This document shows, one piece after another, positions 3,897 to 31,817 of a stretch of DNA of 32,000 nucleotides. The translations under genes and the position numbers were made by a program. The notes under the pieces are model-generated. The model was given only the letters and a program-made list of their open reading frames with translations. It ran no database searches and was not told the DNA's origin. Every line of letters starts with the position of its first letter. The first letter of the stretch is position 1. This stretch comes from Opitutales bacterium (lineage in GTDB: Bacteria; Verrucomicrobiota; Verrucomicrobiia; Opitutales; PNEW01). The stretch covers positions 120,001-152,000 of the forward strand of contig CBDCNV010000001.1 in assembly GCA_965219535.1 (NCBI GenBank), written 5' to 3'.

Positions 3897-4766
3897 TTAA
3901 TCCGCTACCCAATGATGAAAGAGAGGTTTCACATCGTCGGGTAGTTTTTCATAAACCTCGTGTTTCACGGGCGGACTATCAAAATTTTTCCCATTTGTCT
4001 CCACAATCATACGCGTATGATCCGGTGTGCCTATCATCGCGGGATTTAGATTAAACCACCAGGGAACATAGCGAATGATTAATGCAATACGTGGTTCATC
4101 GCTGTTATTTACTCCACCCGCGTGCCAGACACGGGGATCAAATAGAAGGACATCTCCTGGTTCGCCACTGATTTGCACTTCAGTTTTATGGGGAGCGTGA
4201 ATATCGATGCCATTAGCACCCTCGACCGAGGGGCCGTTGCCTATACGGTGACTTCCCGGAATAAAATAAGTGCCGCCCGTTACATCATTGAATGGCGTCA
4301 TCATCCAAATCGTTGTCATCCCCATCATAACGTCCGGATAGGGTGCGGTAATATGCATCGCATTGGATTGATTATAAGGCCAAGCATCATGCCAATAAAA
4401 ACGTTGGGTTTCCGGATCTTTTATAAGAACGGAGGTAAATACAATTCGCGCATACGGTCCCAGTAATGCTTCCGCGACACCGAGTACTTTTTCGTGTGAG
4501 AGATAGGGGGCGAAAACCTGGGTGTTATTAATTAAACCCTTGGCCTGATGTTCCCCTTGGATGCTCATTTTATGACCTTGTGCCCGGGTCTTTGCTTTTT
4601 CTTTTTCTATCTCCGCGAATGCTTCTTCACTTACATTTAAAACTTCCTCGCGAATCGCTTTGACCTTCTCCTCGGGGATTACGTCTTTCGCCACACAAAA
4701 GCCGCTCATCTTTATATCGCTGACGATATTATCGCGCGTCTGTTTATTTTCTTTCTCTTTCATCAT
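3897..4766 (-). CDS. Phytanoyl-CoA dioxygenase (PhyH) family Fe(II)/2-oxoglutarate oxygenase
   Basis: Contains 'YFIPGSHR' and 'VLLFDPRVWHAGGVNNSDEPRIALIIRY', the distal His...N.S...R block typical of PhyH-family proteins. 289 aa. Confidence 0.85.
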   Translation of the reverse strand: MMKEKENKQTRDNIVSDIKMSGFCVAKDVIPEEKVKAIREEVLNVSEEAFAEIEKEKAKTRAQGHKMSIQGEHQAKGLINNTQVFAPYLSHEKVLGVAEALLGPYARIVFTSVLIKDPETQRFYWHDAWPYNQSNAMHITAPYPDVMMGMTTIWMMTPFNDVTGGTYFIPGSHRIGNGPSVEGANGIDIHAPHKTEVQISGEPGDVLLFDPRVWHAGGVNNSDEPRIALIIRYVPWWFNLNPAMIGTPDHTRMIVETNGKNFDSPPVKHEVYEKLPDDVKPLFHHWVAD

Positions 4767-8607: not shown

Positions 8608-11600
8608 TCATTCAATCGTGATCTCATCGATTGTCACGGTGATATCCTCTCCATCCTCATTTGCGAACGTTGCATTGATGCTCTGTGTCGGTTGAGGGGT
8701 GTTATCGGACTTGAAATTGTTCTGGGTGATCAGGGTCTCGAACCCGGGGGTCGTCGATCCACTCTCCGCTACGACGATCGATGCGACGTTTGACTGTGCC
8801 AGGTCTCCACCTGTTATCCGCAACCCGGGGTTGCCCGCCGGCACGGTGAATGATCCTGTGCCAAACAATAAGTGTGGTACCGCATCGCCGCTGGCATCGA
8901 TGTCGCCTACAGTTAAGCGTACCGCGATCGGCACTCCGCGCGCGTCAACGCCAACCTTGCCTGTGCTCCCGCCGAATACAGTGTTCGATAACTGCATCCC
9001 TCCTATGCCTGAAGAGTTAATCACTTCTACCAATGACACGTCCGCTTGCGCATCATAGACCTGTCCCTCGGGGAAGAGCGCCTGGTTCACCGCGTTGATC
9101 GATCCGACGGTGAAGATACTGAAAAAGGTATTCGAATTAGCTCCATCGATGACCACACTTGGTTTACCGGTGACGTACTCCACTGCCTGATTGTAGCGCG
9201 GAGGTATAGCCGGAGGCAGGAAAGTGGCTGGGTCCAAGGTTATGGTAAAAGTCCCTGTGCCTGAAAACTCTACCTGTACTATGTCCTCGGTTTCATCCAT
9301 GAAGGAGACTCGTGTGATCTGTTCTTCCTTTGCCTGAAACTGAATGAATTCACCGGTGAGCAGGACCTGATCAAACACGTTCCCGTTAGGGTGCGCAATG
9401 TTTTCTCCCGCCACATCACCCGAGCCATCGAGAATTAATTTGGCGACCGATGATAATATAACATTATGCCGTCCACCAGCAGTTATGGATGTAACGTTTA
9501 CAACCCCCGCGGGTGCTTCGGCCTGCCCGGAATCATTGAGCCCCCACCCGATCACTTCCCCCGCAGCATCGAGCGCCAGATTGTGGTTTAATCCAGCCGC
9601 GATGGAGGTTACCGCACTCGCATTGAAGGCCACCGTTATTTCGTTTTTCGCGCTCAGGCTTGCCTGGGGCTGGGCTGCGTTAAATGGAATATCCAATTGC
9701 CCAAATGTATTATCACCCCAGGCTACCGTAACACTATCCTCGGTCAGCGCCAGGCTGTGGTTATCTCCTGCTGAGATTGCTGTCACATTCGACAGATCGG
9801 CAGGTACATCCGTCTGGCCGGAGTCATTCAGACCCCAAGCGACGACAGAGCCATCATTTTTTAAGGCCAGGTTATGAAACCCACCGGCCGCCAATGCAAA
9901 GACATCGGTCAGGTCTCCAGGGGGTGTTGCCTGGCCATGGTCATTATTACCCCAGCCGATAACAGTACCATTCGACAATAGAGCGAGGCTATGACTTCTT
10001 CCGGCAGACACTTCGATCACATCGCTTAATCCTGCAGGTACATCCGTCTGGCCGTTATCATTGTTACCCCAGGCGACTACGGTGCCATCCGCTATCACGG
10101 CTAAATTATGATCATACCCCGCATCCACATCGGTAACATTTACCACTTCATCGGGTATAGTCGATTGTCCCGCTTGGTCCCTGCCCCATCCGACTACGCT
10201 GCCGTCATTTCTCAAACCGATATTATGGTCCAGCCCGGCCGACACCTCGATCAGTTCGGGCGCGCCCTCTCCGCGAATAGCTCCCGGCACGCCACCTTGA
10301 TCAAAATCATCAGCACCATAGCCGGCTGCCGTTACCCTCGTTTCAATTTCCTCCTCCACAGGGGGATCACCATTTCCTGTTTGCCCGCCAGGTTCCTTAA
10401 AGTAGAAGCTGTTGTAAGTGAGATTTTGAAGGTCATGGTATTGCAGATCCAGGTTTGTTACGTCAGCCCAGGGAATGCTCTCACTGCTAAGGTCAAGATT
10501 TGTGATATTGCTGAGTTGATCGTTTAGTACTCGCGAAAAAGTAGGACCGCTTTGCCGCGTTATCCGGAATTGGAATCCGTTAACGGGAAAGGTAGGGGAA
10601 ATTTCATCACCGGTTGAAGGATCTCTATAGGTCCAGGAAACACTCTGGATATTATTGTTACTGTCGAGCATCACGGTAGGAAGGATAACCAAGTGATAAT
10701 CTTCAGCCATGGAAGTATCAAAATCAGTTGTAACATCCATGCCTTTATAACTTACGCTATAAGTGCCACTTGGTGGGTAAGGAGGAATACTTACACTGGG
10801 TATACCATAAAAGTTAACATCTTCACCCGGACTAAAAAAAACAGCTGGACTATTGTTGTATTGGGAGCCGTTGGGTCCGCTGAAGAACACCTGGTTCGGA
10901 TCGGGAAGTTCGGTGTCCACCACGCTAAAGTTAAGAAAATAATTTAAATTGGCAGGAAAACCTAGATCCACACCTACTAAACTTCCAGTGCGTGCTGTGA
11001 AATCACCACCGGATTGAAAAATCATACTGATAGAGGTATCGGGTGCGCTCTCACCAGTAGTACGAAATACAAGATCGGTCGTTGCGTTGAATCCCGCAAG
11101 ACCGGTAACGATTTCGACCGGGTTGCCAACGGTGTAATCTGTATCATTGATGTCGACGATATTGATAAAATTCAAAACCACTATGTAATCCGTTCCCGGT
11201 TGCAAGGTGCCCGCAGGAATGGTGACCGAGGTCGCTGTATAATCTAAACTTCCGGATTCAGGTGGAAGCGGAGTCTCAAAAACTATATCTCCATCCATAT
11301 AAGTTTCGATTTCCATGAGGATAAAATCCCCTGCATTTCCATTGGCAAAGGCATCCCAAGTAAGAGTAAAATCCTGGCTGGGATCTACTGCTTGCGTCTC
11401 CGCCAAATTAGTAATTCGAGGATCGTTCGGAAACCTTACGCCGTTAACCGGATCGGCATTTAAATTTAAAGTAGCGGATATGCTGCCATCGTTAGTGGCA
11501 ATTATATTCATGATGTATGCGCCATCGGGGTAATTAGAATCGAGATCAATGATCGAATCAAAGATTTGCACAGATTCCCACTCACCTTCAGATTCTTGGA

Positions 11601-11826
11601 CCAATGACTGAGGACTGCCGCCCGGAGGCGTTACCGTAGCGCTGATAATGGAATCAGGGGTAGTTCCAAATACTGAAACTTCGAAACTGTATTTATCAGC
11701 GGCTCGTGCATCTTTGAATATTACGTACAATTCTGCATCCGCAGCTTTAAGATTCGCTTCAAATAAAAACAGTATGGTAATTATAAGAGCAAAGATATGA
11801 GAGAGCGGTATGCGTTTAATTTTCAT
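8608..11826 (-). CDS. Large secreted protein (1072 aa): signal peptide, N-terminal beta-rich region, six RCC1-like repeats, then the conserved 275-aa C-terminal module
   Basis: Signal peptide 'MKIKRIPLSHIFALIITILFLFEANLKA'. Repeated '[GA]WG.N..GQ...P' units (GWGRDQAGQSTIP, AWGNNDNGQTDVP, GWGNNDHGQATPP, AWGLNDSGQTDVP, AWGDNTFGQLDIP, GWGLNDSGQAEAP). The C-terminus is shared with 18390..20507. Confidence 0.85.
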   Translation of the reverse strand: MKIKRIPLSHIFALIITILFLFEANLKAADAELYVIFKDARAADKYSFEVSVFGTTPDSIISATVTPPGGSPQSLVQESEGEWESVQIFDSIIDLDSNYPDGAYIMNIIATNDGSISATLNLNADPVNGVRFPNDPRITNLAETQAVDPSQDFTLTWDAFANGNAGDFILMEIETYMDGDIVFETPLPPESGSLDYTATSVTIPAGTLQPGTDYIVVLNFINIVDINDTDYTVGNPVEIVTGLAGFNATTDLVFRTTGESAPDTSISMIFQSGGDFTARTGSLVGVDLGFPANLNYFLNFSVVDTELPDPNQVFFSGPNGSQYNNSPAVFFSPGEDVNFYGIPSVSIPPYPPSGTYSVSYKGMDVTTDFDTSMAEDYHLVILPTVMLDSNNNIQSVSWTYRDPSTGDEISPTFPVNGFQFRITRQSGPTFSRVLNDQLSNITNLDLSSESIPWADVTNLDLQYHDLQNLTYNSFYFKEPGGQTGNGDPPVEEEIETRVTAAGYGADDFDQGGVPGAIRGEGAPELIEVSAGLDHNIGLRNDGSVVGWGRDQAGQSTIPDEVVNVTDVDAGYDHNLAVIADGTVVAWGNNDNGQTDVPAGLSDVIEVSAGRSHSLALLSNGTVIGWGNNDHGQATPPGDLTDVFALAAGGFHNLALKNDGSVVAWGLNDSGQTDVPADLSNVTAISAGDNHSLALTEDSVTVAWGDNTFGQLDIPFNAAQPQASLSAKNEITVAFNASAVTSIAAGLNHNLALDAAGEVIGWGLNDSGQAEAPAGVVNVTSITAGGRHNVILSSVAKLILDGSGDVAGENIAHPNGNVFDQVLLTGEFIQFQAKEEQITRVSFMDETEDIVQVEFSGTGTFTITLDPATFLPPAIPPRYNQAVEYVTGKPSVVIDGANSNTFFSIFTVGSINAVNQALFPEGQVYDAQADVSLVEVINSSGIGGMQLSNTVFGGSTGKVGVDARGVPIAVRLTVGDIDASGDAVPHLLFGTGSFTVPAGNPGLRITGGDLAQSNVASIVVAESGSTTPGFETLITQNNFKSDNTPQPTQSINATFANEDGEDITVTIDEITIE
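8611..9438 (-). other. Conserved C-terminal module, copy 1 (aa 798-1072, ends ...ATFANEDGEDITVTIDEITIE)
   Basis: My ungapped hand alignment with aa 431-705 of the 18390..20507 product gives 164/275 identical residues. Confidence 0.8.
9439..10296 (-). other. RCC1-repeat (beta-propeller) region of the 1072-aa protein (aa ~511-796)
   Basis: Six units of ~50 aa, each with 'AG..H..AL..DG.V..WG.N..GQ'. Confidence 0.8.
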
Positions 11827-12030: not shown

Positions 12031-13620
12031 TCAGCTTACGCGCCTGAAACGCATAAAGAGGAAGAGACAACCCAATCCCATCAGCGCCCAGGTAGAGGGT
12101 TCGGGAACTACCTCCAGACTAAGGGAATTAGCGGCATAATGGGGATGAAAAAACAGGTTTCCGGAAAATCCGAATTCGTCGTCAATAGAACCAAATTCGC
12201 CAGACTTCAACCCCGTCCACGTGAGTACCTCAAAGCTCTGACCTAGTGTGGGGAATGTTTTCCCAAGCAATAGGATGTCCAGGTCGCCACTGCCAAAAGT
12301 CAGGTCTCCCATTATATTCAATTGGCCAAAGTCAATTCCGTCCACGATACTGATTTCTAACTTACTCCCCGCTTTAAATGTCAGGTCCCCTTCAATGTCT
12401 AAAGGGAAAACAGGATCGGGTGCGATCGTTCCAAAGTTTTCAATACTATCGATATCAAGAATCCCGTTTCCTTGAACCAGACCCAGATTAGTCAGGGTGA
12501 ACGCTTCTAATTCACTGATCAGTGATCCACTACCTGAAAGATTTAAAGTACCATTTAATCCTACCGTTACATCGTTAGTAACGATCACTTGACTACCCCC
12601 ATCGATACTCAATTGCCCCGTCCCCAGATTGGCTATAGCTAAATTGGATGCATTGATTGTCCCGCCCCCATTAACCGTTAAATTTGCATTATCCGAAGCT
12701 CCCAAGCTAAGTTGAATAGCGTTGTTTACGTCCAGTGTATTGCCAGCCATTCCAAAGGTTAGAGAATCGTTGGGAATATTTAGCCCGTCGACAGTCTGAC
12801 TAGTAACGAAGGAAACGAGATAATTGCTACCGGTCTGATTAAAATGGGCAATATCACCTGAACCGGGGGCGACACCGTCGACCCATTTAGTTCCATCGCC
12901 AAAATTTCCAGGGGCTGGACTAGCCCACAAAAAGGGAATATCGGTCAGCGCGGTTGAAATTTCGCTCGCTAGAAGCGGTCCATCCCAAATCCGGATTTCG
13001 TTAACGATACCCGCAGAAGCTTCTCCAAAACCCGTTGCAGAATCGTCCATAAAAAATGCAAATTGCGCGAATCCACTGTTGTCGAAGGCTATGGCTTGGC
13101 TGGTTGAATCAACAAAGGAGTACTCCGGTGTGGAGGAACCGTTCAGGTAAGCGGTATAAATATTATCAAGTGAGGAGCGAGTGAACACCACATTTATAAA
13201 TTCATCAGCTTGAATAATGCCCGATCCACCATTAGTGGGTGCGAAAAAACGTATATTATTGCTCCTTATATATTGACCTGAATCTGGGATGCGGTTTTTG
13301 AAATCAACAATTTTTTCCCAATCGCTTACTTCCTCAAAACTAAACTGAATCCCAATCGAATAATTATCTGCCAGGCTTAATGCGGTATCAAGAAACACGC
13401 CTTGGTTTGCGCCAAATGAGTAGCTGTTACTATTTATCGTCCCCCCATTATCGGTTAATACCGTACTGCTTAAACTGTCACTAAGATTGTTATCAAATTC
13501 AAATAAATGAACCAAGGTAACAGCTTGCACTCCACTCCATGCCAATGTGCTTATTAATAGTCCGCATCCAATTTTTTTTAGCTTATTTAAAGACATGGCG
13601 AAACAGTGAAATACATTCAT
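12031..13620 (-). CDS. PEP-CTERM-anchored secreted protein with an N-terminal LamG/concanavalin-like region and an autotransporter-like beta-helical repeat region
   Basis: C-terminus 'VVPEPSTWALMGLGCLFLFMRFRRVS' has the PEP motif, a TM helix and a basic tail. N-terminal signal 'KKIGCGLLISTLAWSGVQA'. 'NEIRIWDGPLLASEI' is typical of the end of a LamG-type domain. Repetitive 'GGGTINASNLAIANLGTGQLSIDGGSQVIV...LNLSGSGSL'. The start may instead be M9. Confidence 0.85.
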   Translation of the reverse strand: MNVFHCFAMSLNKLKKIGCGLLISTLAWSGVQAVTLVHLFEFDNNLSDSLSSTVLTDNGGTINSNSYSFGANQGVFLDTALSLADNYSIGIQFSFEEVSDWEKIVDFKNRIPDSGQYIRSNNIRFFAPTNGGSGIIQADEFINVVFTRSSLDNIYTAYLNGSSTPEYSFVDSTSQAIAFDNSGFAQFAFFMDDSATGFGEASAGIVNEIRIWDGPLLASEISTALTDIPFLWASPAPGNFGDGTKWVDGVAPGSGDIAHFNQTGSNYLVSFVTSQTVDGLNIPNDSLTFGMAGNTLDVNNAIQLSLGASDNANLTVNGGGTINASNLAIANLGTGQLSIDGGSQVIVTNDVTVGLNGTLNLSGSGSLISELEAFTLTNLGLVQGNGILDIDSIENFGTIAPDPVFPLDIEGDLTFKAGSKLEISIVDGIDFGQLNIMGDLTFGSGDLDILLLGKTFPTLGQSFEVLTWTGLKSGEFGSIDDEFGFSGNLFFHPHYAANSLSLEVVPEPSTWALMGLGCLFLFMRFRRVS

Positions 13621-13821: not shown

Positions 13822-15054
13822 CTAAGGCTTATTCTCTTGTTGCTGGCTCAGCCAAAGCTCAGCCCCGCGTACGGATTCAGCAACTTGCGCTTCAGACATA
13901 TTCTCCTGCAGCAAGTTTAAGATTTCTTTAAATTCTGTCATACCTCCCGCGATAGCGAGGCTTATCCATTTGTAAGCTTCAATAAAATCGCGCTCCACCC
14001 CCTGGCCGTCAGCATACATCACTCCAAGGTTGTGTTGGGCTCCGGCGACTCCCCGTTCCGCTGCTTCGCGAAACCACTTGACGGCCTCTCCATAATCCTG
14101 AGTTACTCCCTCACCATCGCGATACATTACCCCAAGATTGTATTGGGCCTCTGTCATACCTTGTGCGGCCGCTTTGCGATACCAAGTTAAGGCTTCGGTA
14201 TAATCCTGAGTGACTTCCTCGCCCGTGTAATACATCGTCCCAAGGTTGTATTGGCTATCGGCGTGGCCCTGTTCGGCCGCTTTGCGATACCATGTCACCG
14301 CCTCGCTGTAATCCTGGGTTACCCCTTGAACATTATGATACATCCACCCAAGGTTGGATTGAGCTCCTGCGTCTCCCTGTTCGGCCGCTTTGCGATACCA
14401 CTTGAAAGCCTCATCATAAGACTGAGTAACCCCCAAGCCCTCTCTGTAGATCTCCCCGAGAGCAGTTTGGCCTTTGGCATTTCCCTGGTCCGCCGCTTTG
14501 CGAATCCAGGTTAAGGCTTCATCATAATCCTGGGTTATCCCCTGGCCCGCTGCGTAGATTACGCCGAGGGCAGTTTGGGCTTTGGCATCTCCCTGGTCTG
14601 CAGCCTTGCGATACCATGTGGTGGCTTCGGTGTAATCCTGCTCGACCCCTTGTCCTTTTTCATACATCGCTCCCAGTCTGTTTTGAGCTCGCATCGATCC
14701 CTGTTCTGCTGCCTTGCGTGTCCATGTGACAGCCGCGTTGTAATCCTGCTCTGCCCCTAGACCCTTTTCATACATCACCCCAAGGACGTATTGGGCTTTG
14801 ATGTAACCTTGTTCTGCGGCTTGGCGAATCCATTTTAAAGCTTCGCCAAAATCCTGAGTTACCCCCTCGCCAGCGTAATACCTCCCCCCGAGGTAATATT
14901 GCGCTTTAGCTTCACCCGTTTCTGCGCGCGTTATGATATCTGCTAATCGTTCATTCTCTACACCGACTACAGCAGAGGGCAGAATTAAGAACGCAATTAT
15001 TGAGCGCCAATATTTCACCCCTGTAAATAATTTAGCTATTTTTTCAGGCATCAT
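13822..15054 (-). CDS. Sel1-like repeat (SLR/TPR-like) protein with an N-terminal signal/anchor and nine 36-aa repeats
   Basis: Nine tandem units of the form 'AQ..LG.MY..G.GV.QDY.EA..WYRKAAEQG'. Hydrophobic N-terminus 'YWRSIIAFLILPSAVVG'. Confidence 0.9.
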   Translation of the reverse strand: MMPEKIAKLFTGVKYWRSIIAFLILPSAVVGVENERLADIITRAETGEAKAQYYLGGRYYAGEGVTQDFGEALKWIRQAAEQGYIKAQYVLGVMYEKGLGAEQDYNAAVTWTRKAAEQGSMRAQNRLGAMYEKGQGVEQDYTEATTWYRKAADQGDAKAQTALGVIYAAGQGITQDYDEALTWIRKAADQGNAKGQTALGEIYREGLGVTQSYDEAFKWYRKAAEQGDAGAQSNLGWMYHNVQGVTQDYSEAVTWYRKAAEQGHADSQYNLGTMYYTGEEVTQDYTEALTWYRKAAAQGMTEAQYNLGVMYRDGEGVTQDYGEAVKWFREAAERGVAGAQHNLGVMYADGQGVERDFIEAYKWISLAIAGGMTEFKEILNLLQENMSEAQVAESVRGAELWLSQQQENKP

Positions 15055-25754: not shown

Positions 25755-26110
25755 CGCAATACCTCGTCAGTTTGGTTTAGATATTAGGTTTTGGTAAATT
25801 TGAGATGCTGAGTTATTTCACTAAAGAGTGCCTCTGTCAAAATTGTTGTATCCGCACTTATTGAGATACCGTTTTTCGTACCAATTTTTAAGTGAGTAAG
25901 TTACCGGGTGTTAATGGTTTTAGGATTGATGACTATGAGAGATCTTGGCGAAGTGAGGGCATAGCACAACCACGGCCAAGTTCTGAAGGAATCTGACAAA
26001 CTTTTGTAGGCTTTTAAAGCCTAATAGACTGTGGGGATGTTTATTGTTATAGGTATGACTCCATTGTTCGATTACTATTTGCGCTTCAGCTGTAGCGCCA
26101 ACTTAATAAC

Positions 26111-28039
26111 TTATGGCGTAGGACGAAAGCGAAAAGAATAGAGGTCCGCGTCTTTGCAAACAAAACGTAAACGGACGGGTTGTCCTGACAGTTTGCCAAG
26201 ACTGGAAGAATCCAACCAGTTTACCTTGCGCTCGATGGAGTCGCCGAATACAGCGTGACAATCCGCCAAAGTAAATCCTTCTATCGGTTTACCCGATTCA
26301 TTCTGTATTTCGACCTGAACGCCACCCGCTGCGGAGCTCGAGAAATTGATGACCATCTCGTCGCCATCGAAAACAAGCGGCTTGGTAACCAGTTCACCGC
26401 CGCTGAGAGGAGCGTTGACCGAAACGAATCCATCGATGCGCATCGTGTAGCGGCGGAGTTGACTGCTGGTGCCAGTCCAGTAACCTTCGGTTGCATAGAG
26501 CGACAACTCGTTCGGAGCGTCTTCATATTTAGATTTTGTTTCGACCAGTTGCCAGGCAATGAACTGGTTACCATAGGCCCAACTGTGCTTTCGCTCGATA
26601 CCCGGTCGCAGAAACGCATCATCCCATCGTTTGAAAGTATGTCCGTCTCGGCTGGTCATGAACAAGGCTTCGGTGACCGCAGTGCCGAAACGGGGTTCCA
26701 ACTTATCGTGACCTTCGTAAACAACAAGCTCTGGATCAGAGCCGGCTCGTTGAAGGCGCTCGGATAATTCCGGCAGCGCACGTGTTGAATCCGACCATCC
26801 ACGGTTGATATAGCGGGTAGGAAAGCCAATGAGAATATGCGGCGCTCGGTAATACGGTTTGATTTGGTTGGTGTATAAATGATCGGGCCGCGCGCCAGGG
26901 TATTTTAGACGGATGGGATCGACCCAGTTCACAAAGTCACTCGAGGTCATTGTCATAATATCGCGGCGATCATCCGGCCAGGAACGAAAGTAGAGGCGGT
27001 AAAGTCCATTGGCAGAATCCCAAAATGCCAGGTTTTGCGAATCGAAATAAATACTTTTTACGGTTGGTTCAAAGATCTTCATTTCGCTTTCTGAAATGAT
27101 CTTTTTGTCACTCATTGCTGTCCAATGAATGCCGTCAGCCGACTTGAATACCCTTAATCCTTCAAAATCACCGGACACACGAATAGCTTTGTAACGTGCA
27201 TCCGGTGGTGCTTCAGGGTTTGTGTCTTTAAACACCGCGGAATGTACGGCGTCGACAGCATTGAGTAAAATCGGACCTAACACCTTCCCGTTAGGACCTT
27301 GCATCTCTTTTACGGCAGTACCGTCCAAATCTTCAATAACCGGAGTGACGGGGGGAGCTGTAACAGTGATGATCGAAGTATCACTGTTAATATAAACTCC
27401 AGCTTTTGTTGTTATCTGGACCCAGAAGTTTGTGCTCTCATTTAGAGGGCCGGTATTCAAGGTGTTGCTGGTTGCACCTGCGATGGGCTTAGAAGTGTCA
27501 CCAGGTTTGCCGATATACCATTGATATTTCAGATCGTCACCTTTTACTTCAATGGAAATAACTACCGCGGTACCGGACTGCACTTCCCTGTCAGTCTGGT
27601 TGTCGGCCCACATGATATTATTTTTCTTTGATCCGTTGAAATCAATGAGTCCCAGTTCGGGTTTTCGCCAGTGAATACCGTCGTCACTTTCGGCGTAACA
27701 GTAGTATAGCGGGTGCGTCCAGTCGAGATTACCTTCGGTGGTAGTATACTGGCTCGCCTTGTAATACAAACGAAAGAGATCGCCATCTTTAAAGATACTG
27801 TGATAGTTAGTGGCATTGCCTTCCCAGGGTTCATCATGGACAATTGCCACATCCTGCGGAGTGGGATGGTGTAAAGTCTGCCGGGCCCCGCCGGACAACT
27901 CGTCGATCAGATAATCATCGACAAAAAGCTCCCAACGCGAACCAATGTCGATCGGCTCCTGAGAATGGTTGGAAATGTCAGCACAAGCGAGAAGGAGTAC
28001 TATTGATATTAAAATAAATACTGTTGATAATAATTTCAT
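26111..28039 (-). CDS. Lipoprotein with a putative beta-propeller glycoside-hydrolase-like fold and an inserted Ig-like domain
   Basis: Lipobox 'VLLLAC' (Cys19). 'YYCYAESDDGIHWRKPELGLIDFNGSKKNNIMW' and later 'SADGIHWT' resemble GH32/43/sialidase-like propeller proteins of PVC and Bacteroidota. An Ig-like segment 'KYQWYIGKPGDTSKPIAGATSNTLNTGPL' lies between them. The function is unverified. Confidence 0.6.
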   Translation of the reverse strand: MKLLSTVFILISIVLLLACADISNHSQEPIDIGSRWELFVDDYLIDELSGGARQTLHHPTPQDVAIVHDEPWEGNATNYHSIFKDGDLFRLYYKASQYTTTEGNLDWTHPLYYCYAESDDGIHWRKPELGLIDFNGSKKNNIMWADNQTDREVQSGTAVVISIEVKGDDLKYQWYIGKPGDTSKPIAGATSNTLNTGPLNESTNFWVQITTKAGVYINSDTSIITVTAPPVTPVIEDLDGTAVKEMQGPNGKVLGPILLNAVDAVHSAVFKDTNPEAPPDARYKAIRVSGDFEGLRVFKSADGIHWTAMSDKKIISESEMKIFEPTVKSIYFDSQNLAFWDSANGLYRLYFRSWPDDRRDIMTMTSSDFVNWVDPIRLKYPGARPDHLYTNQIKPYYRAPHILIGFPTRYINRGWSDSTRALPELSERLQRAGSDPELVVYEGHDKLEPRFGTAVTEALFMTSRDGHTFKRWDDAFLRPGIERKHSWAYGNQFIAWQLVETKSKYEDAPNELSLYATEGYWTGTSSQLRRYTMRIDGFVSVNAPLSGGELVTKPLVFDGDEMVINFSSSAAGGVQVEIQNESGKPIEGFTLADCHAVFGDSIERKVNWLDSSSLGKLSGQPVRLRFVCKDADLYSFRFRPTP

Positions 28040-28248
28040 AGCGGAGAATTTCGGTTACAGATTGTGTATTTGCAATTGTAATGAATAGCATAGATAGATA
28101 ATGAACTACCTGAGTGCAGCCAACCCTATCAAAACATCAAGAGAGAGCAAAAGAAAACATAGGGATTGTCATCTTTTCCTTTTCATTCACGCGATGCCAT
28201 GAACTCGGATTATCTGCCAAATTTTCGGATTCTTAGCCGCTCGGGTCG

Positions 28249-29247
28249 TCAAGCCCCGAAGCACTTCTCTACCCACTCCATCGGTTGGAACGGTTCCCCG
28301 AAAAGTGCTTGCATCAACTCGCCCCAAAGTCGTTCTGCGTTGTCGCTGTTGCCCATGAAGACCGCGCCGGTACGGGAATCGGGAAAACCGATAACGAACG
28401 ATCGTGTGCAAGGTCTTGCGCCCCACTGCCACACAGCGAGCTGGTCGTCGTCGCGATGGATGCCCCAGCCCAAACCCCAATGGATCGTGTCGTTGACCTG
28501 GATCTGCGGCGTGAACATCGCGCGATGCAGATCATCCGAAAGTCGAAGCGGATGGTCGCGAGGCTGTGTCAGCACGAAGCGCAGGAAGCGGGCATAATCC
28601 AGCGCGCTGCAGTGAAGACTAGCAGCGGCATTCATCTCGGGCAGAGTTGCCTTCGGCTTGGCTTTACCTTCCGCATCGTGCGGATGCGCAACGGACAGGT
28701 CCTCGTTCCCTGTCCACACGAACGTAGCACCTTGCATCTCAAGGGGTGTCATCACCTCCCGCGCGATATAGGCGTGCACCGGTTCGTCGACTAGCGCATC
28801 CACAACATGCTGCAGGTAAAGGAAGCCTTCGCCCGAATAGGAGAATTGGCGGCCGGGGTCAAAGTGCGTGCGCAGCACGTCTTCACCTCGCATGTTCGGA
28901 AATCCCGACGTGTGGCTCAGCACATGGCGGGTGGTGATCGCGTTGACGCGCTCGTCCTCCACGTAGTCGTTGTCGAGATATGCGCAAAGGGGTCGATCAA
29001 GGTTCAGAAGTTCCTCTTCGCAGAGCTTCAGGACGGCATACGCGAACACCTGCTTACTGAGCGAAGCCGCTTCGAAGACCGACGTCGATGTCACCGGTTC
29101 ATTCGTGTCGGTGCACAGCACGCCAAAGCCCTGGTTCCAGGCGATTTCACCGTCTACCACAACGCAAACACAGAGACCGGGCACCGTCTCGCGCGCCATC
29201 CACTCGGGGATGGCTTCAGCGAGAGAGTGAAAGTCAATGTTCATCAT
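28249..29247 (-). CDS. Serine hydrolase, beta-lactamase class C / esterase (EstB-like) family, cytoplasmic; GC-rich
   Basis: 'ASLSKQVFAYAV' is the S-x-x-K motif, 'YSGEGF' is a Y-x-N-like motif, and the C-terminal part has 'HWGLGWG'. There is no signal peptide. A hand-counted line (28861-28920) is 58% GC. Confidence 0.85.
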   Translation of the reverse strand: MMNIDFHSLAEAIPEWMARETVPGLCVCVVVDGEIAWNQGFGVLCTDTNEPVTSTSVFEAASLSKQVFAYAVLKLCEEELLNLDRPLCAYLDNDYVEDERVNAITTRHVLSHTSGFPNMRGEDVLRTHFDPGRQFSYSGEGFLYLQHVVDALVDEPVHAYIAREVMTPLEMQGATFVWTGNEDLSVAHPHDAEGKAKPKATLPEMNAAASLHCSALDYARFLRFVLTQPRDHPLRLSDDLHRAMFTPQIQVNDTIHWGLGWGIHRDDDQLAVWQWGARPCTRSFVIGFPDSRTGAVFMGNSDNAERLWGELMQALFGEPFQPMEWVEKCFGA

Positions 29248-29433
29248 TCAGATAAGAAATCGCTGTAGATTATACATCAACTGATTAAATTACTACAAAA
29301 CATAATTAAAACCGAATGCCGTATTTACCGTGAAAGTACCGGTTCGTTTTGCTAAACAAAATCCGCTCTCCTTTATATGCTGAACTCGATATTGAACATA
29401 AATTTTAATCTTTAACTAATTTATGAGAATGTT

Positions 29434-29507: not shown

Positions 29508-29584
<77 letters not shown>

Positions 29585-29735
29585 TTCGGCTTCGCTCATG
29601 GCAGGCAATTCGACTCCGACCTGCTGGCCGTCGCTCATGGCAGGCAATTCGATTCGGCCATCTTGGCCTCATTCATGACAGGTCAATTTTCGAATCGGCT
29701 TTGCTTGCTTCACTCATGGCAGGTCATTTATTATT
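29585..29735 (+). repeat. Four tandem 38-41 bp repeats starting immediately after the tRNA 3' end
   Basis: Cores are 'tcgctcatggcaggcaattcga' at 29592 and 29631 (identical), 'tcattcatgacaggtcaattttcga' at 29669 and 'tcactcatggcaggtcattta' at 29710. A fifth partial core 'ggcaggtcattttcg' lies at ~30772..30786. Confidence 0.8.
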
Positions 29736-29755
29736 GATTACTTATGCATCCTACC

Positions 29756-29887
29756 ATGACGGAACACGAACACTATCTCTTTGATTTACGTGACTATATT
29801 GTTATCCCCAATGCATTGTCCCCAGAGCCGATGCCGATGATCGACAAGGAATGGCTCGCAGAGGAAGAACGAAAGCTGGGCAGCTAA
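29756..29887 (+). pseudogene. Truncated 5' duplicate of the PhyH-family gene at 30977 (43 codons, then stop)
   Basis: 55 of the first 62 nt from the ATG are identical to 30977..31038. 'MTEHEHYLFDLRDYIVIPNALSPE' aligns with 'MTEHERYLFDLRGYIVIPDALTPE'. The sequence diverges afterwards and stops at 29885..29887. Confidence 0.7.
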
Positions 29888-29911
29888 ACTCAGCGCAACC
29901 TGGAGAAGACG

Positions 29912-30757
29912 ATGAGTAGACTGACCGACGCACATATCGAGGAGCTCGACCGCGAGGGCTTTTTTATCGTCCCGGACTTTATCAGCGGTGACCAACTCAC
30001 AACCCTGCAGGCGGCACAGCGGCGAGCCCTGCCGACCTACGAGCAGGTCAAGGACGACCCCCCGCAGGACCAGGCCGGCCATAGCCTGCTGAAGTGTTTT
30101 CCGTACGAGGAGATCGAGCTCTACCGAGCAACGATGGACGAGGAGAGCATCGCCTTCGCCCGCAAATGGCTCAAGACGGACGACATTCACATGCGGGTGG
30201 GCTGCCTGATCGCCCGCTATCCCGGCCACACCAGCGGCGGCACGGGTTTCGACGATTCGGGCTTGCACATCGACAATGGCAACAACTCGCTTTTGCCCAA
30301 AAGCGAAGACCGGCGCGAATTCGGTCAGATCGGTTTCTGGGTTCACCTCGAGGAGGTGGAGGAAGACCAGGCGCCGCTGCGGCTAGTCCCCAAGCAGCAC
30401 GGCAGGGACATGACAAAATGCTTCCCGCTCGTGTGCAAGAGCGGCACCCTGTGCGTCTTCACCAACTACAGCTGGCACAGCGCCAGCGCCTACACCGGCC
30501 AAGACGGCCAGCGTTTCACCTGGGGTTATGGCTTCGGCCGCGCCGACCACTACTGGGAGGGCTTCAGGCACTATACCCACCTGGGCAAGGGCGCGGCGGT
30601 ATTCCAGGAGTTTATCGGTGGCCTGACCGCCGCCCAGCGCCAGCTCTGGCGCTTCCCCCCGGCGGGACACTCCTACTATACGGAACAGACCCTGGCGCTA
30701 TTGGAAGAACAGTACCCGGGTTGGGACTCGAACGAATACCGCCGGGCGATGCCATAG
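29912..30757 (+). CDS. PhyH-family Fe(II)/2-oxoglutarate dioxygenase, strongly GC-rich (probably acquired)
   Basis: RBS 'ggag' 8 nt upstream. 'REGFFIVPDFIS', 'LHIDNGNN' (H.D) and 'NYSWHSASAYTGQDGQR' (distal His block). A hand-counted line (30181-30240) is 70% GC, against 47% in the neighbouring paralogue. Long overlapping alternative-frame ORFs are consistent with this. Confidence 0.8.
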   Translation: MSRLTDAHIEELDREGFFIVPDFISGDQLTTLQAAQRRALPTYEQVKDDPPQDQAGHSLLKCFPYEEIELYRATMDEESIAFARKWLKTDDIHMRVGCLIARYPGHTSGGTGFDDSGLHIDNGNNSLLPKSEDRREFGQIGFWVHLEEVEEDQAPLRLVPKQHGRDMTKCFPLVCKSGTLCVFTNYSWHSASAYTGQDGQRFTWGYGFGRADHYWEGFRHYTHLGKGAAVFQEFIGGLTAAQRQLWRFPPAGHSYYTEQTLALLEEQYPGWDSNEYRRAMP

Positions 30758-30811
30758 CCGCCTCTGCCGGCAGGTCATTTTCGCTCTATAGAGCTAGGCA
30801 AGTTATTACTT

Positions 30812-30836
30812 GGCCACGACGACGCGTGGCCCTCCA
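30812..30836. repeat. REP-like hairpin 'E', short form
   Basis: 'ggccacg-acgacg-cgtggcc' followed by 'ctcca'. The same arms and tail occur at 31752..31817. Confidence 0.65.
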
Positions 30837-30976
30837 ACATGCACTTGTATCCTGCATCGTGCATCATAATCTCCTCAATCGATAATCCTTACCAAGGGCG
30901 AACCTCGACATCATCAAAATCGGTAATACCATACCTGATACGACACCACATTAATTGACTCCATAAACATCCTGTC

Positions 30977-31750
30977 ATGACTGAACACGAACGGTATCTC
31001 TTTGATTTACGCGGCTATATTGTTATCCCCGACGCATTAACCCCTGAACAGATTACAGATCTGAACGCTCTTATGGACGAACAGGTTGAAAAAGAATGTG
31101 AGCCGGATGAGAGATTGCACCGCTTTGTTCACCTTTTGCACTGGGGACAAGCTTGTCGCAGCCTGATCGACAACCCGGTTATCGTCCCGTATTTAGTCGA
31201 GCTGCTGGGCGAACAGTTTCGCCTCGACCATGATTACGCGGAGATAATCAGAACAGGTTCAGGGAATCTCCCGAGAACGTTTCATGGCGGTGCCCATCCC
31301 TTCAACCCCGTTATGTATTATAACTATCATTCGGGGAGCATGTATAATGGACTGACTGTCGTCGCTTTTAATTTAAAAGATATACACCCCGGTGACGGTG
31401 GATTTGGTTGTGTACCCGGAAGCCATAAAAGCAATCTTTCGTTTCCGGAGGATTGGCGCGATATTAATAAAGCTCCTTCAATTATCGAAAAGATCACGGG
31501 GCAGGCAGGGACTGCGATCATTTTCACTGAAGCGCTCACTCACGGGACATTACCCTGGCTCGGGAAAGATGACCGGCGGACAATATTTTATAAATACAGT
31601 CCACACACCCTCTCATGGGCAGCACAATATTATGATGCTGATGATTATACCGATTTGACGGAACGGCAACGGGAGATTCTCGAGGCGCCCAATGCACGCT
31701 ATAAGGAGAGGAAAGAGTTTTACCTGAACTATCCCAATAAAAAGCAATAG
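30977..31750 (+). CDS. PhyH-family Fe(II)/2-oxoglutarate dioxygenase
   Basis: 'YLFDLRGYIVIPDAL', 'GFGCVPGSHKSN' and 'IIFTEALTHGTLPW...RRTIFYKY' are typical PhyH-family blocks. 257 aa. Confidence 0.85.
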   Translation: MTEHERYLFDLRGYIVIPDALTPEQITDLNALMDEQVEKECEPDERLHRFVHLLHWGQACRSLIDNPVIVPYLVELLGEQFRLDHDYAEIIRTGSGNLPRTFHGGAHPFNPVMYYNYHSGSMYNGLTVVAFNLKDIHPGDGGFGCVPGSHKSNLSFPEDWRDINKAPSIIEKITGQAGTAIIFTEALTHGTLPWLGKDDRRTIFYKYSPHTLSWAAQYYDADDYTDLTERQREILEAPNARYKERKEFYLNYPNKKQ

Positions 31751-31751
31751 C

Positions 31752-31817
31752 GGCCACGATCAGCCGTCGTCCCGCGGACGCGGGACTATGTCCGACAGGC
31801 AAAGGCGTGGCCCTCCA
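31752..31817. repeat. REP-like hairpin 'E', long form with a nested inner hairpin; possible terminator of the 30977..31750 gene
   Basis: 'ggccacg' + 45-nt insert + 'cgtggcc' + 'ctcca'. The insert contains 'gtcccgc-ggac-gcgggac' (31769..31786, 7-bp stem). The element starts 2 nt after the stop codon and has no U-tract. Confidence 0.55.

What the first reader, a model, noticed from the sequence alone, without database searches (positions are those of the whole stretch)
29720..31038. GC-rich PhyH gene inserted between a truncated and an intact copy of the resident PhyH gene's 5' region
The resident gene (30977..31750, ~47% GC) has a duplicate of its start at 29756. Of the first 62 nt from the ATG, 55 are identical, and the upstream strings 'catcct..catgac', 'attactt' and 'ggcaggtcattt' are also shared. 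The duplicate decays into a 43-codon dead end. A complete PhyH-family gene of ~70% GC (29912..30757) with its own RBS follows 24 nt later. Beyond it lies a short form of the hairpin repeat E that also follows the resident gene. The order is: truncated 5' copy, foreign gene, then intact gene with its upstream region. This is the product expected from single-crossover integration through a short homology spanning the gene start. The cargo also belongs to the same enzyme family as the target.
Basis: partly seen in the sequence, partly recalled or inferred. Interest (0 to 1): 0.7.

Follow-up and report, generated by a model that had tools for sequence, protein, structure and literature searches.

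The report
Foreign dioxygenase gene at tRNA-Lys hotspot
A marine Opitutales bacterium carries about 950 bp of DNA from a high-GC bacterium (a complete dioxygenase gene plus the tail of the donor's neighbouring gene) next to its tRNA-Lys gene, spliced onto a duplicated start of its own dioxygenase gene; this is a well-resolved but ordinary case of horizontal gene transfer at a tRNA hotspot.

Summary
The inserted gene is 62% GC (GC3 82%), not about 70%. The "43-codon dead end" has not decayed. It is an in-frame chimera of 21 codons of the resident PhyH start joined to the last 21 codons of a foreign Gfo/Idh/MocA oxidoreductase gene. The join lies at a CCCC microhomology (29820-29823).

The foreign block is 29820-30768. 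Its closest non-Opitutales relatives are Trueperaceae copies (86% nt identity, including the oxidoreductase tail).

Relatives give a series of alleles:
- Free-living relatives have a single resident PhyH beside the tRNA-Lys site, which an integrase island occupies.
- One relative (L098) has the foreign gene in a 1.3-kb integrase-less islet flanked by direct repeats of the tRNA-Lys 3' end, with no duplicated PhyH start.
- The window, L012 and L106 have the rearranged form.
- L003, L013 and L108 have lost the resident gene.

I conclude that the gene first entered through the tRNA-Lys attachment site. A later illegitimate join produced the duplication.

The foreign gene is under purifying selection and has moved between Opitutales species. 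This is a new member of a known kind, of moderate to low interest.

The parts
29508..29584 (+). tRNA-Lys (anticodon CTT); its 3' half is the attachment site used by islands in relatives
   Evidence: ARAGORN and Rfam RF00005 at 62.6 bits. Partial 3' copies (attR) occur in L098, L092 and L108.
29585..29730 (+). Four tandem repeats of about 40 nt (R), each ending in ..TCATGGCAGG(C/T)(A/C)ATT..; left copy of the duplicated block
   Evidence: TRF periods 39 and 41; the repeat finder D2, D3; motif search 5 vs 0.25 expected. Read from the sequences, copy number is about 1 in L003, 2 in L012, 5-6 in L013 and 2 in L106.
29731..29755 (+). Short upstream region U' of the left copy (ATTATTGATTACTTATGCATCCTACC)
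   Evidence: Matches the resident upstream region (30954-30976) and is shared at 89-95% with L003, L013 and L012. It equals the L092 upstream region minus about 62 nt.
29756..29819 (+). Truncated duplicate of the first 21 codons of the resident PhyH gene
   Evidence: 55/62 nt identical to 30977-31038. Homology ends at 29819.
29820..29832 (+). Recombination junction: CCCCAGAGCCGAT, a microhomology between the resident gene (CCCCTGAACAGAT, 31041-31053) and the donor oxidoreductase tail (CCCCGGAGCCGAT in L098)
   Evidence: Sequences. BLAST homology to L015 and L098 starts at 29820.
29820..29887 (+). Last ~21 codons and stop codon of a foreign Gfo/Idh/MocA oxidoreductase gene, fused in frame to the PhyH 5' fragment (chimeric ORF 29744/29756-29887)
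   Evidence: tblastn: PEPMPMIDKEWLAEEERKLGS* matches the C-terminus of the intact 390-aa gene of Gemmatimonadetes L019 (8677-9849; Pfam GFO_IDH_MocA E = 6e-20) and remnants in L015 and L098. ORF dN/dS is 0.3-1.0, and L106 has an in-frame stop.
29888..29911 (+). Donor-derived intergenic spacer with a Shine-Dalgarno-like GGAG
   Evidence: Conserved with Trueperaceae L015 and with L099.
29912..30757 (+). Foreign PhyH-family Fe(II)/2-oxoglutarate dioxygenase gene (281 aa), 62.3% GC, GC3 82%
   Evidence: Pfam PF05721. PDB 8xp6 2OG-Fe(II) oxygenase, E = 2e-20, with HxD and the distal His aligned. Composition; tree; dN/dS 0.13-0.28.
30758..30768 (+). Remnant of the donor-derived 3' flank (ccgcctctgcc); the flank is cut short here, and attR, which follows the cargo in L098, is absent
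   Evidence: Compare L015, L013 and L003 (ccgcctg.gcctttggcg...) and L098 (ccgcc...attR). Homology to relatives ends at 30763-30768.
30769..30811 (+). About 1.5 units of the 40-nt repeat plus ATTACTT; right copy of the duplicated block
   Evidence: GGCAGGTCATTT is exact (D7). It resembles the repeats that follow attR in L098.
30812..30836 (+). Short hairpin GGCCACGAcgacgCGTGGCC + CTCCA
   Evidence: -14.7 kcal/mol, z = -2.2.
30837..30976 (+). Upstream region of the resident gene, hypervariable among relatives
   Evidence: No BLAST match in relatives other than L106. It includes 30954-30976, which is homologous to U'.
30977..31750 (+). Resident PhyH-family dioxygenase gene (257 aa), 47% GC
   Evidence: Pfam PF05721, E = 1e-9. 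It is the only PhyH at this site in L092-L097. It is frameshifted in L106 and L107 and absent in L003, L013 and L108.
31752..31817 (+). Long form of the hairpin repeat after the resident gene
   Evidence: -34.4 kcal/mol, z = -3.2. A similar hairpin follows the radical-SAM gene just beyond the window (L001 13886-13930).

Best explanation
The segment 29585-30976 is a rearranged remnant of a small, integrase-less genomic islet at tRNA-Lys(CTT).

Shown:
- The cargo, 29820-30768, is DNA of high-GC origin. It holds the last 21 codons of a Gfo/Idh/MocA oxidoreductase gene, the 24-nt spacer with its ribosome-binding site, a complete PhyH-family Fe(II)/2-oxoglutarate dioxygenase gene, and 11 nt of 3' flank.
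- In relative L098 the same cargo lies in a 1.3-kb islet between the intact tRNA-Lys and a direct repeat of the tRNA 3' end. This is the signature of site-specific integration.
- Tyrosine-integrase islands occupy the same site in other relatives.

Inferred:
- An illegitimate join at CCCC (10 of 13 nt) connected codon 22 of a copy of the resident PhyH gene to the oxidoreductase tail. That copy came with its upstream region and the tRNA-proximal 40-nt repeats.
- The join removed the islet's AT-rich left arm and left the intact resident gene downstream.
- The order tRNA / repeats / upstream / PhyH 5' / cargo / repeats / upstream / PhyH can arise in three ways: homology-facilitated illegitimate recombination into a single-PhyH chromosome; a circle integrating by single crossover; or unequal exchange followed by att x att deletion.
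- attR was later deleted at the 30768/30769 boundary.
- The foreign gene is probably transcribed from the duplicated resident promoter and translated from its own ribosome-binding site.

Shown from comparisons:
- The foreign gene is kept under purifying selection and has moved between Opitutales species.
- The resident copy is frameshifted or deleted in several genomes that carry the foreign gene.
For: 1. Composition. The foreign block is 62.1% GC and its flanks are 46%. The 281-aa gene matches its host's GC in almost every other genome, but exceeds it by 13-15 points in the window, L098, L003, L012 and L013.
2. Phylogeny. The Opitutales copies form one clade (95% bootstrap), sister to Deinococcota copies (89%). 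Trueperaceae L015 aligns at 86.4% nt across 29820-30763, including the oxidoreductase tail and spacer.
3. The tail of the small ORF is the C-terminus of an intact Gfo/Idh/MocA gene that lies upstream of the PhyH homologue in Gemmatimonadetes L019.
4. L098 has the order tRNA-Lys / AT-rich arm / oxidoreductase tail / PhyH / 23 nt / a 34-nt exact repeat of the tRNA 3' end followed by a longer G run and TACCA / 40-nt repeats / resident PhyH, with no integrase.
5. L092-L097 have an integrase island, attR, repeats and a single resident PhyH.
6. Left junctions differ between alleles. The window, L003, L013 and L106 join at CCCC. L012 joins at ACAGAT and retains 75 nt more of the islet. L108 joins inside the upstream region and retains the islet's left arm.
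7. For the foreign gene, dS between the window and L098 or L012 is 0.08-0.13, against 0.37-0.41 for the adjacent resident gene. Its dN/dS is 0.13-0.28.
8. The same foreign gene (93.5% nt) sits in an unrelated locus in L099-L101 and L111-L115.
Against: - The window itself has no attR and no integrase, so the islet origin rests on relatives.
- L098's right end differs from the 3' flank shared by L015, L013 and L003, so L098 is not a pristine ancestor.
- The direction of transfer between Trueperaceae and Opitutales is unresolved. L015 also carries a tRNA-Lys 3' fragment and the AT-rich arm.
- A partly AT-shifted copy (52% GC) sits at the syntenic locus in free-living L014 and L102-L105. The first acquisition may therefore be old, which fits poorly with the unameliorated GC3 in the window.
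- The tree is neighbour-joining on about 280 columns.
- Expression from the duplicated promoter is untested.
Confidence: 0.75

Rival explanations
1. A circular foreign molecule that carried a short copy of the PhyH gene start integrated by one homologous crossover at the resident gene. This delivered the GC-rich gene directly and duplicated the target.
For: The order truncated 5' copy / cargo / intact gene with its upstream region is the Campbell product. The duplicated block also includes the repeat and upstream strings. A circle cut out of an L098-like chromosome would have this structure.
Against: - L098 shows the cargo at the tRNA att site with no duplicated PhyH start.
- The cargo has no nucleotide homology to the resident gene.
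- The left boundary is a microhomology join to a foreign oxidoreductase tail.
- Three different left junctions exist among alleles.
- This route needs an illegitimate circle-forming step anyway, so it is not simpler than the alternatives.
Confidence: 0.15
2. An ancient tandem duplication of the resident PhyH gene. The left copy decayed and most of it was later overwritten by the GC-rich gene.
For: PhyH genes are numerous and clustered in these genomes: three in this window and six in 13 kb in L099.
Against: No sampled relative has a full-length left copy. The single-PhyH allele exists. The left copy ends at a sharp junction rather than fading. In L012 the left copy is as close to intact resident genes (67-68 of 75 nt) as those are to each other.
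Confidence: 0.04
3. The GC-rich gene is native to Opitutales at this locus, and its composition is a local peculiarity. Alternatively, the arrangement is a metagenomic assembly chimera.
For: A 283-aa orthologue sits at the syntenic position in free-living Opitutales (L014, L102-L105). The Opitutales copies are monophyletic.
Against: - GC3 is 82%, against about 48% in the flanks.
- The block begins inside a foreign gene remnant that is shared with Trueperaceae and Gemmatimonadetes.
- Even the L014-type copy is 9 GC points above its genome.
- The same junctions recur in independent assemblies from different samples and assemblers.
Confidence: 0.05

Closest known systems
tRNA-gene-associated genomic islands and integrative elements with tyrosine recombinases (P4-like, ICE/IME type)
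   Same: They insert at the 3' end of a tRNA gene, are bounded by a direct repeat of the tRNA 3' end, have atypical composition, and carry accessory cargo. Integrase-bearing islands use the same tRNA-Lys site in relatives.
   Different: The islet is only about 1.3 kb in L098 and has no integrase. In the window the right repeat is gone and the left arm has been replaced by a duplicate of the neighbouring gene's start.
CIMEs (cis-mobilizable elements: att-flanked, recombinase-less derivatives of ICEs, described for the ICESt1/ICESt3 family of Streptococcus thermophilus; recalled from my own knowledge)
   Same: They are att-flanked elements without recombination genes, sitting at a site that related integrase-bearing elements also use. 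In L108 an integrase island lies in tandem with the cargo.
   Different: Mobilization by accretion has not been shown here. The element family and the host phyla are unrelated.
Homology-facilitated illegitimate recombination (Acinetobacter baylyi, Streptococcus pneumoniae; recalled from my own knowledge)
   Same: Foreign DNA is fixed with one end in a homologous anchor and the other joined at a 3-10-nt microhomology. Here the joins are at CCCC, ACAGAT and TA(T)AA.
   Different: This is inferred from end products only. The homologous anchor cannot be mapped, because the region to the right of the cargo is hypervariable.
Campbell-type insertion-duplication
   Same: A direct duplication of the target's 5' segment flanks the insert, and only the downstream copy is intact.
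   Different: The homology is not part of the foreign gene. It would have to come from an excised piece of a related chromosome. The primary insertion was at the tRNA site.
PhyH (phytanoyl-CoA dioxygenase) family Fe(II)/2-oxoglutarate dioxygenases, PF05721
   Same: Both genes pass the Pfam threshold. The foreign protein aligns with PDB 8xp6 (2OG-Fe(II) oxygenase), with HxD and the distal His conserved.
   Different: The substrates are unknown. The two proteins are only 27% identical over 49 aa, so they belong to different subfamilies.

Membership tests
PhyH family (PF05721) Fe(II)/2OG dioxygenase | Profile match above the Pfam gathering score | tested here: met
   The GC-rich gene scores 28.6 bits and the resident gene 39.5 bits, against a cut-off of 22.
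PhyH family (PF05721) Fe(II)/2OG dioxygenase | HxD...H iron-binding triad | tested here: met
   For the GC-rich protein, LHIDN aligns with LHNDA, and WHSAS with VHRGS, of PDB 8xp6. For the resident protein only the distal His (THGT vs MHGT of 4xc9) is clearly aligned.
tRNA-integrated genomic island | Lies immediately 3' of a tRNA gene | tested here: met
   tRNA-Lys is at 29508-29584 and the variable region starts at 29585.
tRNA-integrated genomic island | Bounded by a direct repeat of the tRNA 3' end (attL/attR) | tested here: not met
   The window has no second tRNA 3' copy. The feature is met in relative L098 (5500-5546 vs 4205-4243) and for the integrase islands of L092 and L108.
tRNA-integrated genomic island | Encodes its own integrase | tested here: not met
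   There is no integrase between the tRNA and the resident gene in the window or in L098. Integrases of 470-472 aa (PF00589) sit at the same site in L092-L097 and L108-L110.
tRNA-integrated genomic island | Composition and phylogeny discordant with the host | tested here: met
CIME (att-flanked, recombinase-less mobilizable element) | att sites on both sides with no recombination module | tested here: inconclusive
   True of L098. Not true of the window allele, which has lost attR.
CIME (att-flanked, recombinase-less mobilizable element) | Excision and transfer when an integrase element integrates in tandem | not testable with these tools
   The evidence is only circumstantial. There is a tandem integrase island in L108. 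The same cargo occurs in several Opitutales species with low dS and in a Trueperaceae genome with a tRNA-Lys 3' fragment.
Campbell-type insertion-duplication | Direct duplication of the target segment on both sides of the insert | tested here: met
   29733-29832 vs 30954-31053 (81%), plus the GGCAGGTCATTT and ATTACTT strings.
Campbell-type insertion-duplication | A circular donor carrying the homologous segment | not testable with these tools
   No reads are available. Pattern scans of the metagenome and viral collections for the islet arm and for the oxidoreductase tail found nothing.
Homology-facilitated illegitimate recombination | An illegitimate joint at a short microhomology | tested here: met
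   CCCC is exact, and 10 of 13 nt match, between resident 31041-31053 and the donor tail. L012 joins at ACAGAT.
Homology-facilitated illegitimate recombination | A homologous anchor on the other side of the insert | tested here: inconclusive
   The region to the right of the cargo is hypervariable. The resident gene is no closer to the putative donor type L098 (90.5%) than to L092 (89.1%).

The most novel reading that the evidence does not exclude
An integrase-less, att-flanked islet carrying a dioxygenase gene shuttles between phyla (Trueperaceae and Opitutales) and between Opitutales species in marine or host-associated communities. It is mobilized in trans by the tyrosine-integrase islands that use the same tRNA-Lys site. 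Its cargo was originally captured by imprecise excision from a high-GC chromosome. After arrival it is repeatedly rewired behind host promoters by microhomology joins, while the native neighbour gene decays.
Probability: 0.2. Interest if true: 0.55.

Novelty: new member of a known kind. Interest (0 to 1): 0.35.

Why it matters
Public assemblies here preserve several stages of one gene acquisition:
- the empty site;
- the att-flanked islet;
- a rearranged form with a duplicated host gene start;
- forms in which the native gene is frameshifted or deleted.

Together they show how DNA that enters through a tRNA attachment site can lose all marks of its vehicle and end up looking like a homology-driven insertion. 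The series is a caution for inferring mechanism from a single genome. It also gives a concrete case of cross-phylum and cross-species gene flow among co-occurring uncultured marine bacteria. It does not reveal a new kind of element or mechanism.

Tried and rejected
- I looked for similarity between the ~95 nt after the tRNA fragment in Trueperaceae L015 and the truncated PhyH 5' copy. Alignment scores were at shuffle level. That stretch instead matches the islet's left arm in L098.
- I asked whether the 273-aa PhyH upstream of the homologue in L008 was the source of the truncated ORF. Its N-terminus is unrelated.
- I asked whether the 280-aa PhyH downstream of the homologue in Trueperaceae L005 is an orthologue of the resident gene, which would imply a conserved gene pair. 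It is only 28% identical.
- Exact-pattern scans for the islet arm and for the oxidoreductase tail in metagenome contigs and viral contigs found nothing.
- Rfam found only the tRNA, so the 40-nt repeats are not a described RNA family.
- Promoter and terminator scans were at shuffle level.
- The inverted match between the tRNA 3' end and 30707-30733 (I1) lies in a conserved protein motif and is at the level expected by chance for an all-against-all comparison.
- I could not assign L099-type contigs to a taxon. They share only the foreign gene with the other loci.
Full report
**What is in the window**

tRNA-Lys(CTT) lies at 29508-29584. It is followed by these features, in order:
- Four tandem ~40-nt repeats, 29585-29730.
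- A 25-nt stretch, then an ATG at 29756 that opens a 43-codon ORF ending at 29887.
- A 24-nt spacer.
- A 281-codon PhyH-family gene, 29912-30757 (Pfam PF05721).
- 11 nt, then another GGCAGGTCATTT with about 1.5 repeat units, 30769-30811.
- A short hairpin, 30812-30836.
- 140 nt of upstream region.
- The resident PhyH gene, 30977-31750, followed by a long form of the hairpin.

55 of the first 62 nt from the two ATGs are identical, and 100 nt align at 81%. The GC figure does not hold: the inserted gene is 62.3% GC (GC3 81.9%), against 47.2% for the resident gene and 48.4% for the window.

**The "dead end" is a chimera**

Similarity between the left copy and the resident gene stops at 29819. From 29820 to 30763 the window aligns at 86.4% with a Trueperaceae MAG (L015). 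The same stretch aligns at 94-96.5% with the Opitutales relatives L003, L012, L013 and L098.

The part upstream of the PhyH start codon encodes PEPMPMIDKEWLAEEERKLGS*. This is the C-terminus of a 390-aa Gfo/Idh/MocA oxidoreductase. That gene is intact directly upstream of the PhyH homologue in a Gemmatimonadetes MAG, L019.

The small ORF is therefore 21 codons of the resident PhyH fused in frame to the last 21 codons of a foreign gene. The join sits at CCCC. The resident reads CCCCTGAACAGAT and the donor reads CCCCGGAGCCGAT, a match of 10 in 13.

The ORF shows no clear constraint. Its dN/dS is 0.3-1.0 on few changes, and L106 has an in-frame stop.

**The gene is foreign**

The 281-aa gene has the GC content of its host in almost every genome sampled: 62 vs 62.5% in Trueperaceae, 65 vs 62% in Gemmatimonadetes, and 48 vs 48% in a low-GC Deinococcales MAG. 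In the window, L098, L003, L012 and L013 it exceeds the flanks by 13-15 points.

In a neighbour-joining tree the Opitutales copies form one clade (95% bootstrap). That clade is sister to Deinococcota copies (89%), and the three Trueperaceae copies are monophyletic (100%).

The foreign and resident proteins share only 27% identity over 49 residues. "Same family" is therefore true only at Pfam level. PhyH genes are also common in these genomes. There are three in this window and six in 13 kb of L099.

**Source organism**

The window matches a 362-kb contig of ENA assembly ERZ25072670. Its closest named relatives are Opitutales MAGs. A sponge or other host-associated habitat is my inference from the co-occurring taxa; I did not test it.

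**Alleles in relatives**

| Allele | Core nt identity to window | Arrangement | Calls |
|---|---|---|---|
| L092-L097, free-living marine | ~89% | Tyrosine-integrase island, partial tRNA-Lys (attR), 1-2 repeats, upstream region, a single resident PhyH, then 2-hydroxyacid dehydrogenase.
| L098 | ~82% | Intact tRNA-Lys, a ~380-nt AT-rich arm, ~110 nt of oxidoreductase tail, the GC-rich PhyH, 23 nt, a second copy of the tRNA 3' end (34 nt exact, then a longer G run and TACCA), 40-nt repeats, ~300 nt, resident PhyH. No integrase and no duplicated PhyH start. | 45, 50, 51, 54, 81 |
| L012 | ~82% | tRNA, two repeats, the same short upstream region, a resident 5' copy running to ...GAACAGAT. It joins the islet at ACAGAT, so 75 nt of the AT-rich arm are retained. 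The resident gene starts 22 nt after the foreign gene. | 30, 31, 43 |
| Window, L106, L107 | L106 97% | The form described above. In L106 and L107 the resident gene carries the same +1 frameshift (184 aa). | 86, 89-91 |
| L003, L013 | ~95% | Same left side as the window, but the resident gene and the radical-SAM gene are absent. | 16, 21, 22, 29, 32, 33 |
| L108-L110 | 98% to L003 on the right side | Integrase island, attR, one repeat, the start of the upstream region joined to the islet's left arm, a longer oxidoreductase tail, the foreign gene. No resident gene. | 87, 88, 91 |
| L014, L102-L105, free-living | ~81-85% | A tRNA-3'-like fragment and the islet arm lead directly into a 283-aa orthologue of 52% GC in a 43% GC genome. 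| 56, 71, 72 |
| L099-L101, L111-L115 | not assignable | The same gene (93.5% nt, 61% GC) with only the 23-nt spacer, in an unrelated PhyH-rich cluster. | 70, 72, 73, 92 |

**Interpretation**

The att-flanked form in L098, together with integrase islands at the same site, shows that the cargo reached this locus through the tRNA-Lys attachment site. It arrived as part of an island that is now reduced to an islet.

The Trueperaceae locus L015 carries the same unit in a 44-49% GC patch of a 60-70% GC genome. That unit consists of an 18-nt tRNA-Lys 3' fragment, the left arm (alignment score 66 against a shuffle maximum of 16), the arm/oxidoreductase junction, and 37 nt of shared 3' flank. The chimeric unit has therefore crossed phyla. 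The direction is unresolved. L015's PhyH groups with its Trueperaceae paralogue (92% aa), which favours assembly of the chimera in a Trueperaceae-like genome.

The window form has the tRNA followed directly by the repeats, as in the empty site. The islet's left arm is replaced by the block [repeat - short upstream region - PhyH 5']. That left block is shared with L003, L013 and L012 at 81-95%. This level is consistent with neutral divergence at the same rate as the foreign gene's dS.

One illegitimate join plus one homologous or site-specific exchange is enough to produce this form. Three routes give the same order:
- Homology-facilitated illegitimate recombination of L098-type DNA into a single-PhyH chromosome.
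- Unequal sister exchange followed by attL x attR deletion.

I cannot separate these routes. The window junction may also derive from an L012-type junction by deletion between CCCCTGAACAGAT and CCCCGGAGCCGAT. attR was lost at the 30768/30769 boundary.

**Selection and spread**

The foreign gene has dN/dS of 0.13-0.28 among Opitutales copies. Its dS between the window and L098 or L012 is 0.08-0.13. The neighbouring resident gene has dS of 0.37-0.41 for the same pairs. The window's copy is also closer to L098's (dS 0.08) than to that of its near relative L003 (0.14). The segment has therefore been exchanged among species after they diverged.

The iron-binding HxD and distal His align with PDB 8xp6, so the enzyme looks intact. 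Several carriers have a frameshifted or deleted resident gene. This could mean functional replacement, but the two proteins are too different for me to assert it.

**Open points**
- The unameliorated GC3 in the window clade sits awkwardly with the AT-shifted orthologue in L014-type genomes, given that they form one clade.
- L098's right end differs from the flank shared by L015, L013 and L003.
- Expression has not been tested.

**Verdict**

The foreign origin is supported. The proposed mechanism is only one formal route to a secondary rearrangement, not the way the gene entered. The case is a new member of a known kind: a tRNA-associated islet with horizontally acquired cargo, remodelled by microhomology joins.

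Noticed in passing
window 26091-29362: A 3.3-kb block just upstream of the tRNA-Lys is replaced by 94 nt in the close relatives L003 and L013. It holds a 642-aa Ig-like-domain protein (26111-28039, minus strand) and a beta-lactamase-family serine hydrolase (28249-29247, minus strand; 58.7% GC, GC3 65%). It is present in L106 and rearranged or duplicated in L012. This may be a second foreign insertion beside the same tRNA.
   Followed up: partly
window 29585-29730; L003, L012, L013, L098, L092, L106, L108: The ~40-nt tandem repeat after tRNA-Lys varies in copy number between relatives. Read from the sequences, it is about 1 in L003 and L108, 2 in L012, L092 and L106, 4 in the window, and 5-6 in L013. 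In L098 it follows attR rather than the tRNA. It matches no Rfam family. Its function is unknown.
   Followed up: partly
window 31752-31817 and beyond the window (L001 11989-13930): A 614-aa radical-SAM gene lies between the resident PhyH and the 2-hydroxyacid dehydrogenase gene only in the window, L106 and L107. L012 and L098 have a 279-aa PhyH on the minus strand there, and L092 has nothing. The radical-SAM gene is bracketed by two copies of the GGCCACGATCAGC... hairpin.
   Followed up: no
L106 5066-5620 and L107 1459-2013: In strains 97% identical to the window, the resident PhyH has a 1-nt insertion (T after nt 497) that truncates it to 184 aa. The insertion is identical in two assemblies from different samples. 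It could be real pseudogenisation or a recurrent homopolymer error.
   Followed up: partly
L099-L101, L111-L115 (gene at L099 6196-7041): The same GC-rich dioxygenase gene (93.5% nt, 61% GC) is also inserted, with only its 23-nt upstream spacer, in a PhyH-, epimerase- and aldo-keto-reductase-rich cluster of an unidentified 47% GC marine bacterium. These contigs come from some of the same sample series as the single-PhyH allele.
   Followed up: partly
L015 8900-9900 (Trueperaceae OY759346.1): A 44-49% GC patch in a 60-70% GC genome holds a GNAT acetyltransferase gene (8946-9593, minus strand), an 18-nt fragment of the Opitutales-type tRNA-Lys 3' end (9714-9731) and the islet's left arm. It lies directly upstream of the PhyH homologue.
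   Followed up: partly
window 13822-15054 (minus strand): A 410-aa Sel1-repeat protein is encoded by 108-nt tandem DNA repeats (14014-14833). Nearby are an RCC1-repeat protein (8608-11826) and a PEP-CTERM protein (12031-13620). Eukaryote-like repeat proteins of this kind are often reported in host-associated bacteria.
   Followed up: no
window 3897-4766 (minus strand): This is a third PhyH-family gene in the window (Pfam E = 8e-24). PhyH genes are so frequent in this genome that a PhyH landing next to a PhyH is not remarkable.
   Followed up: no
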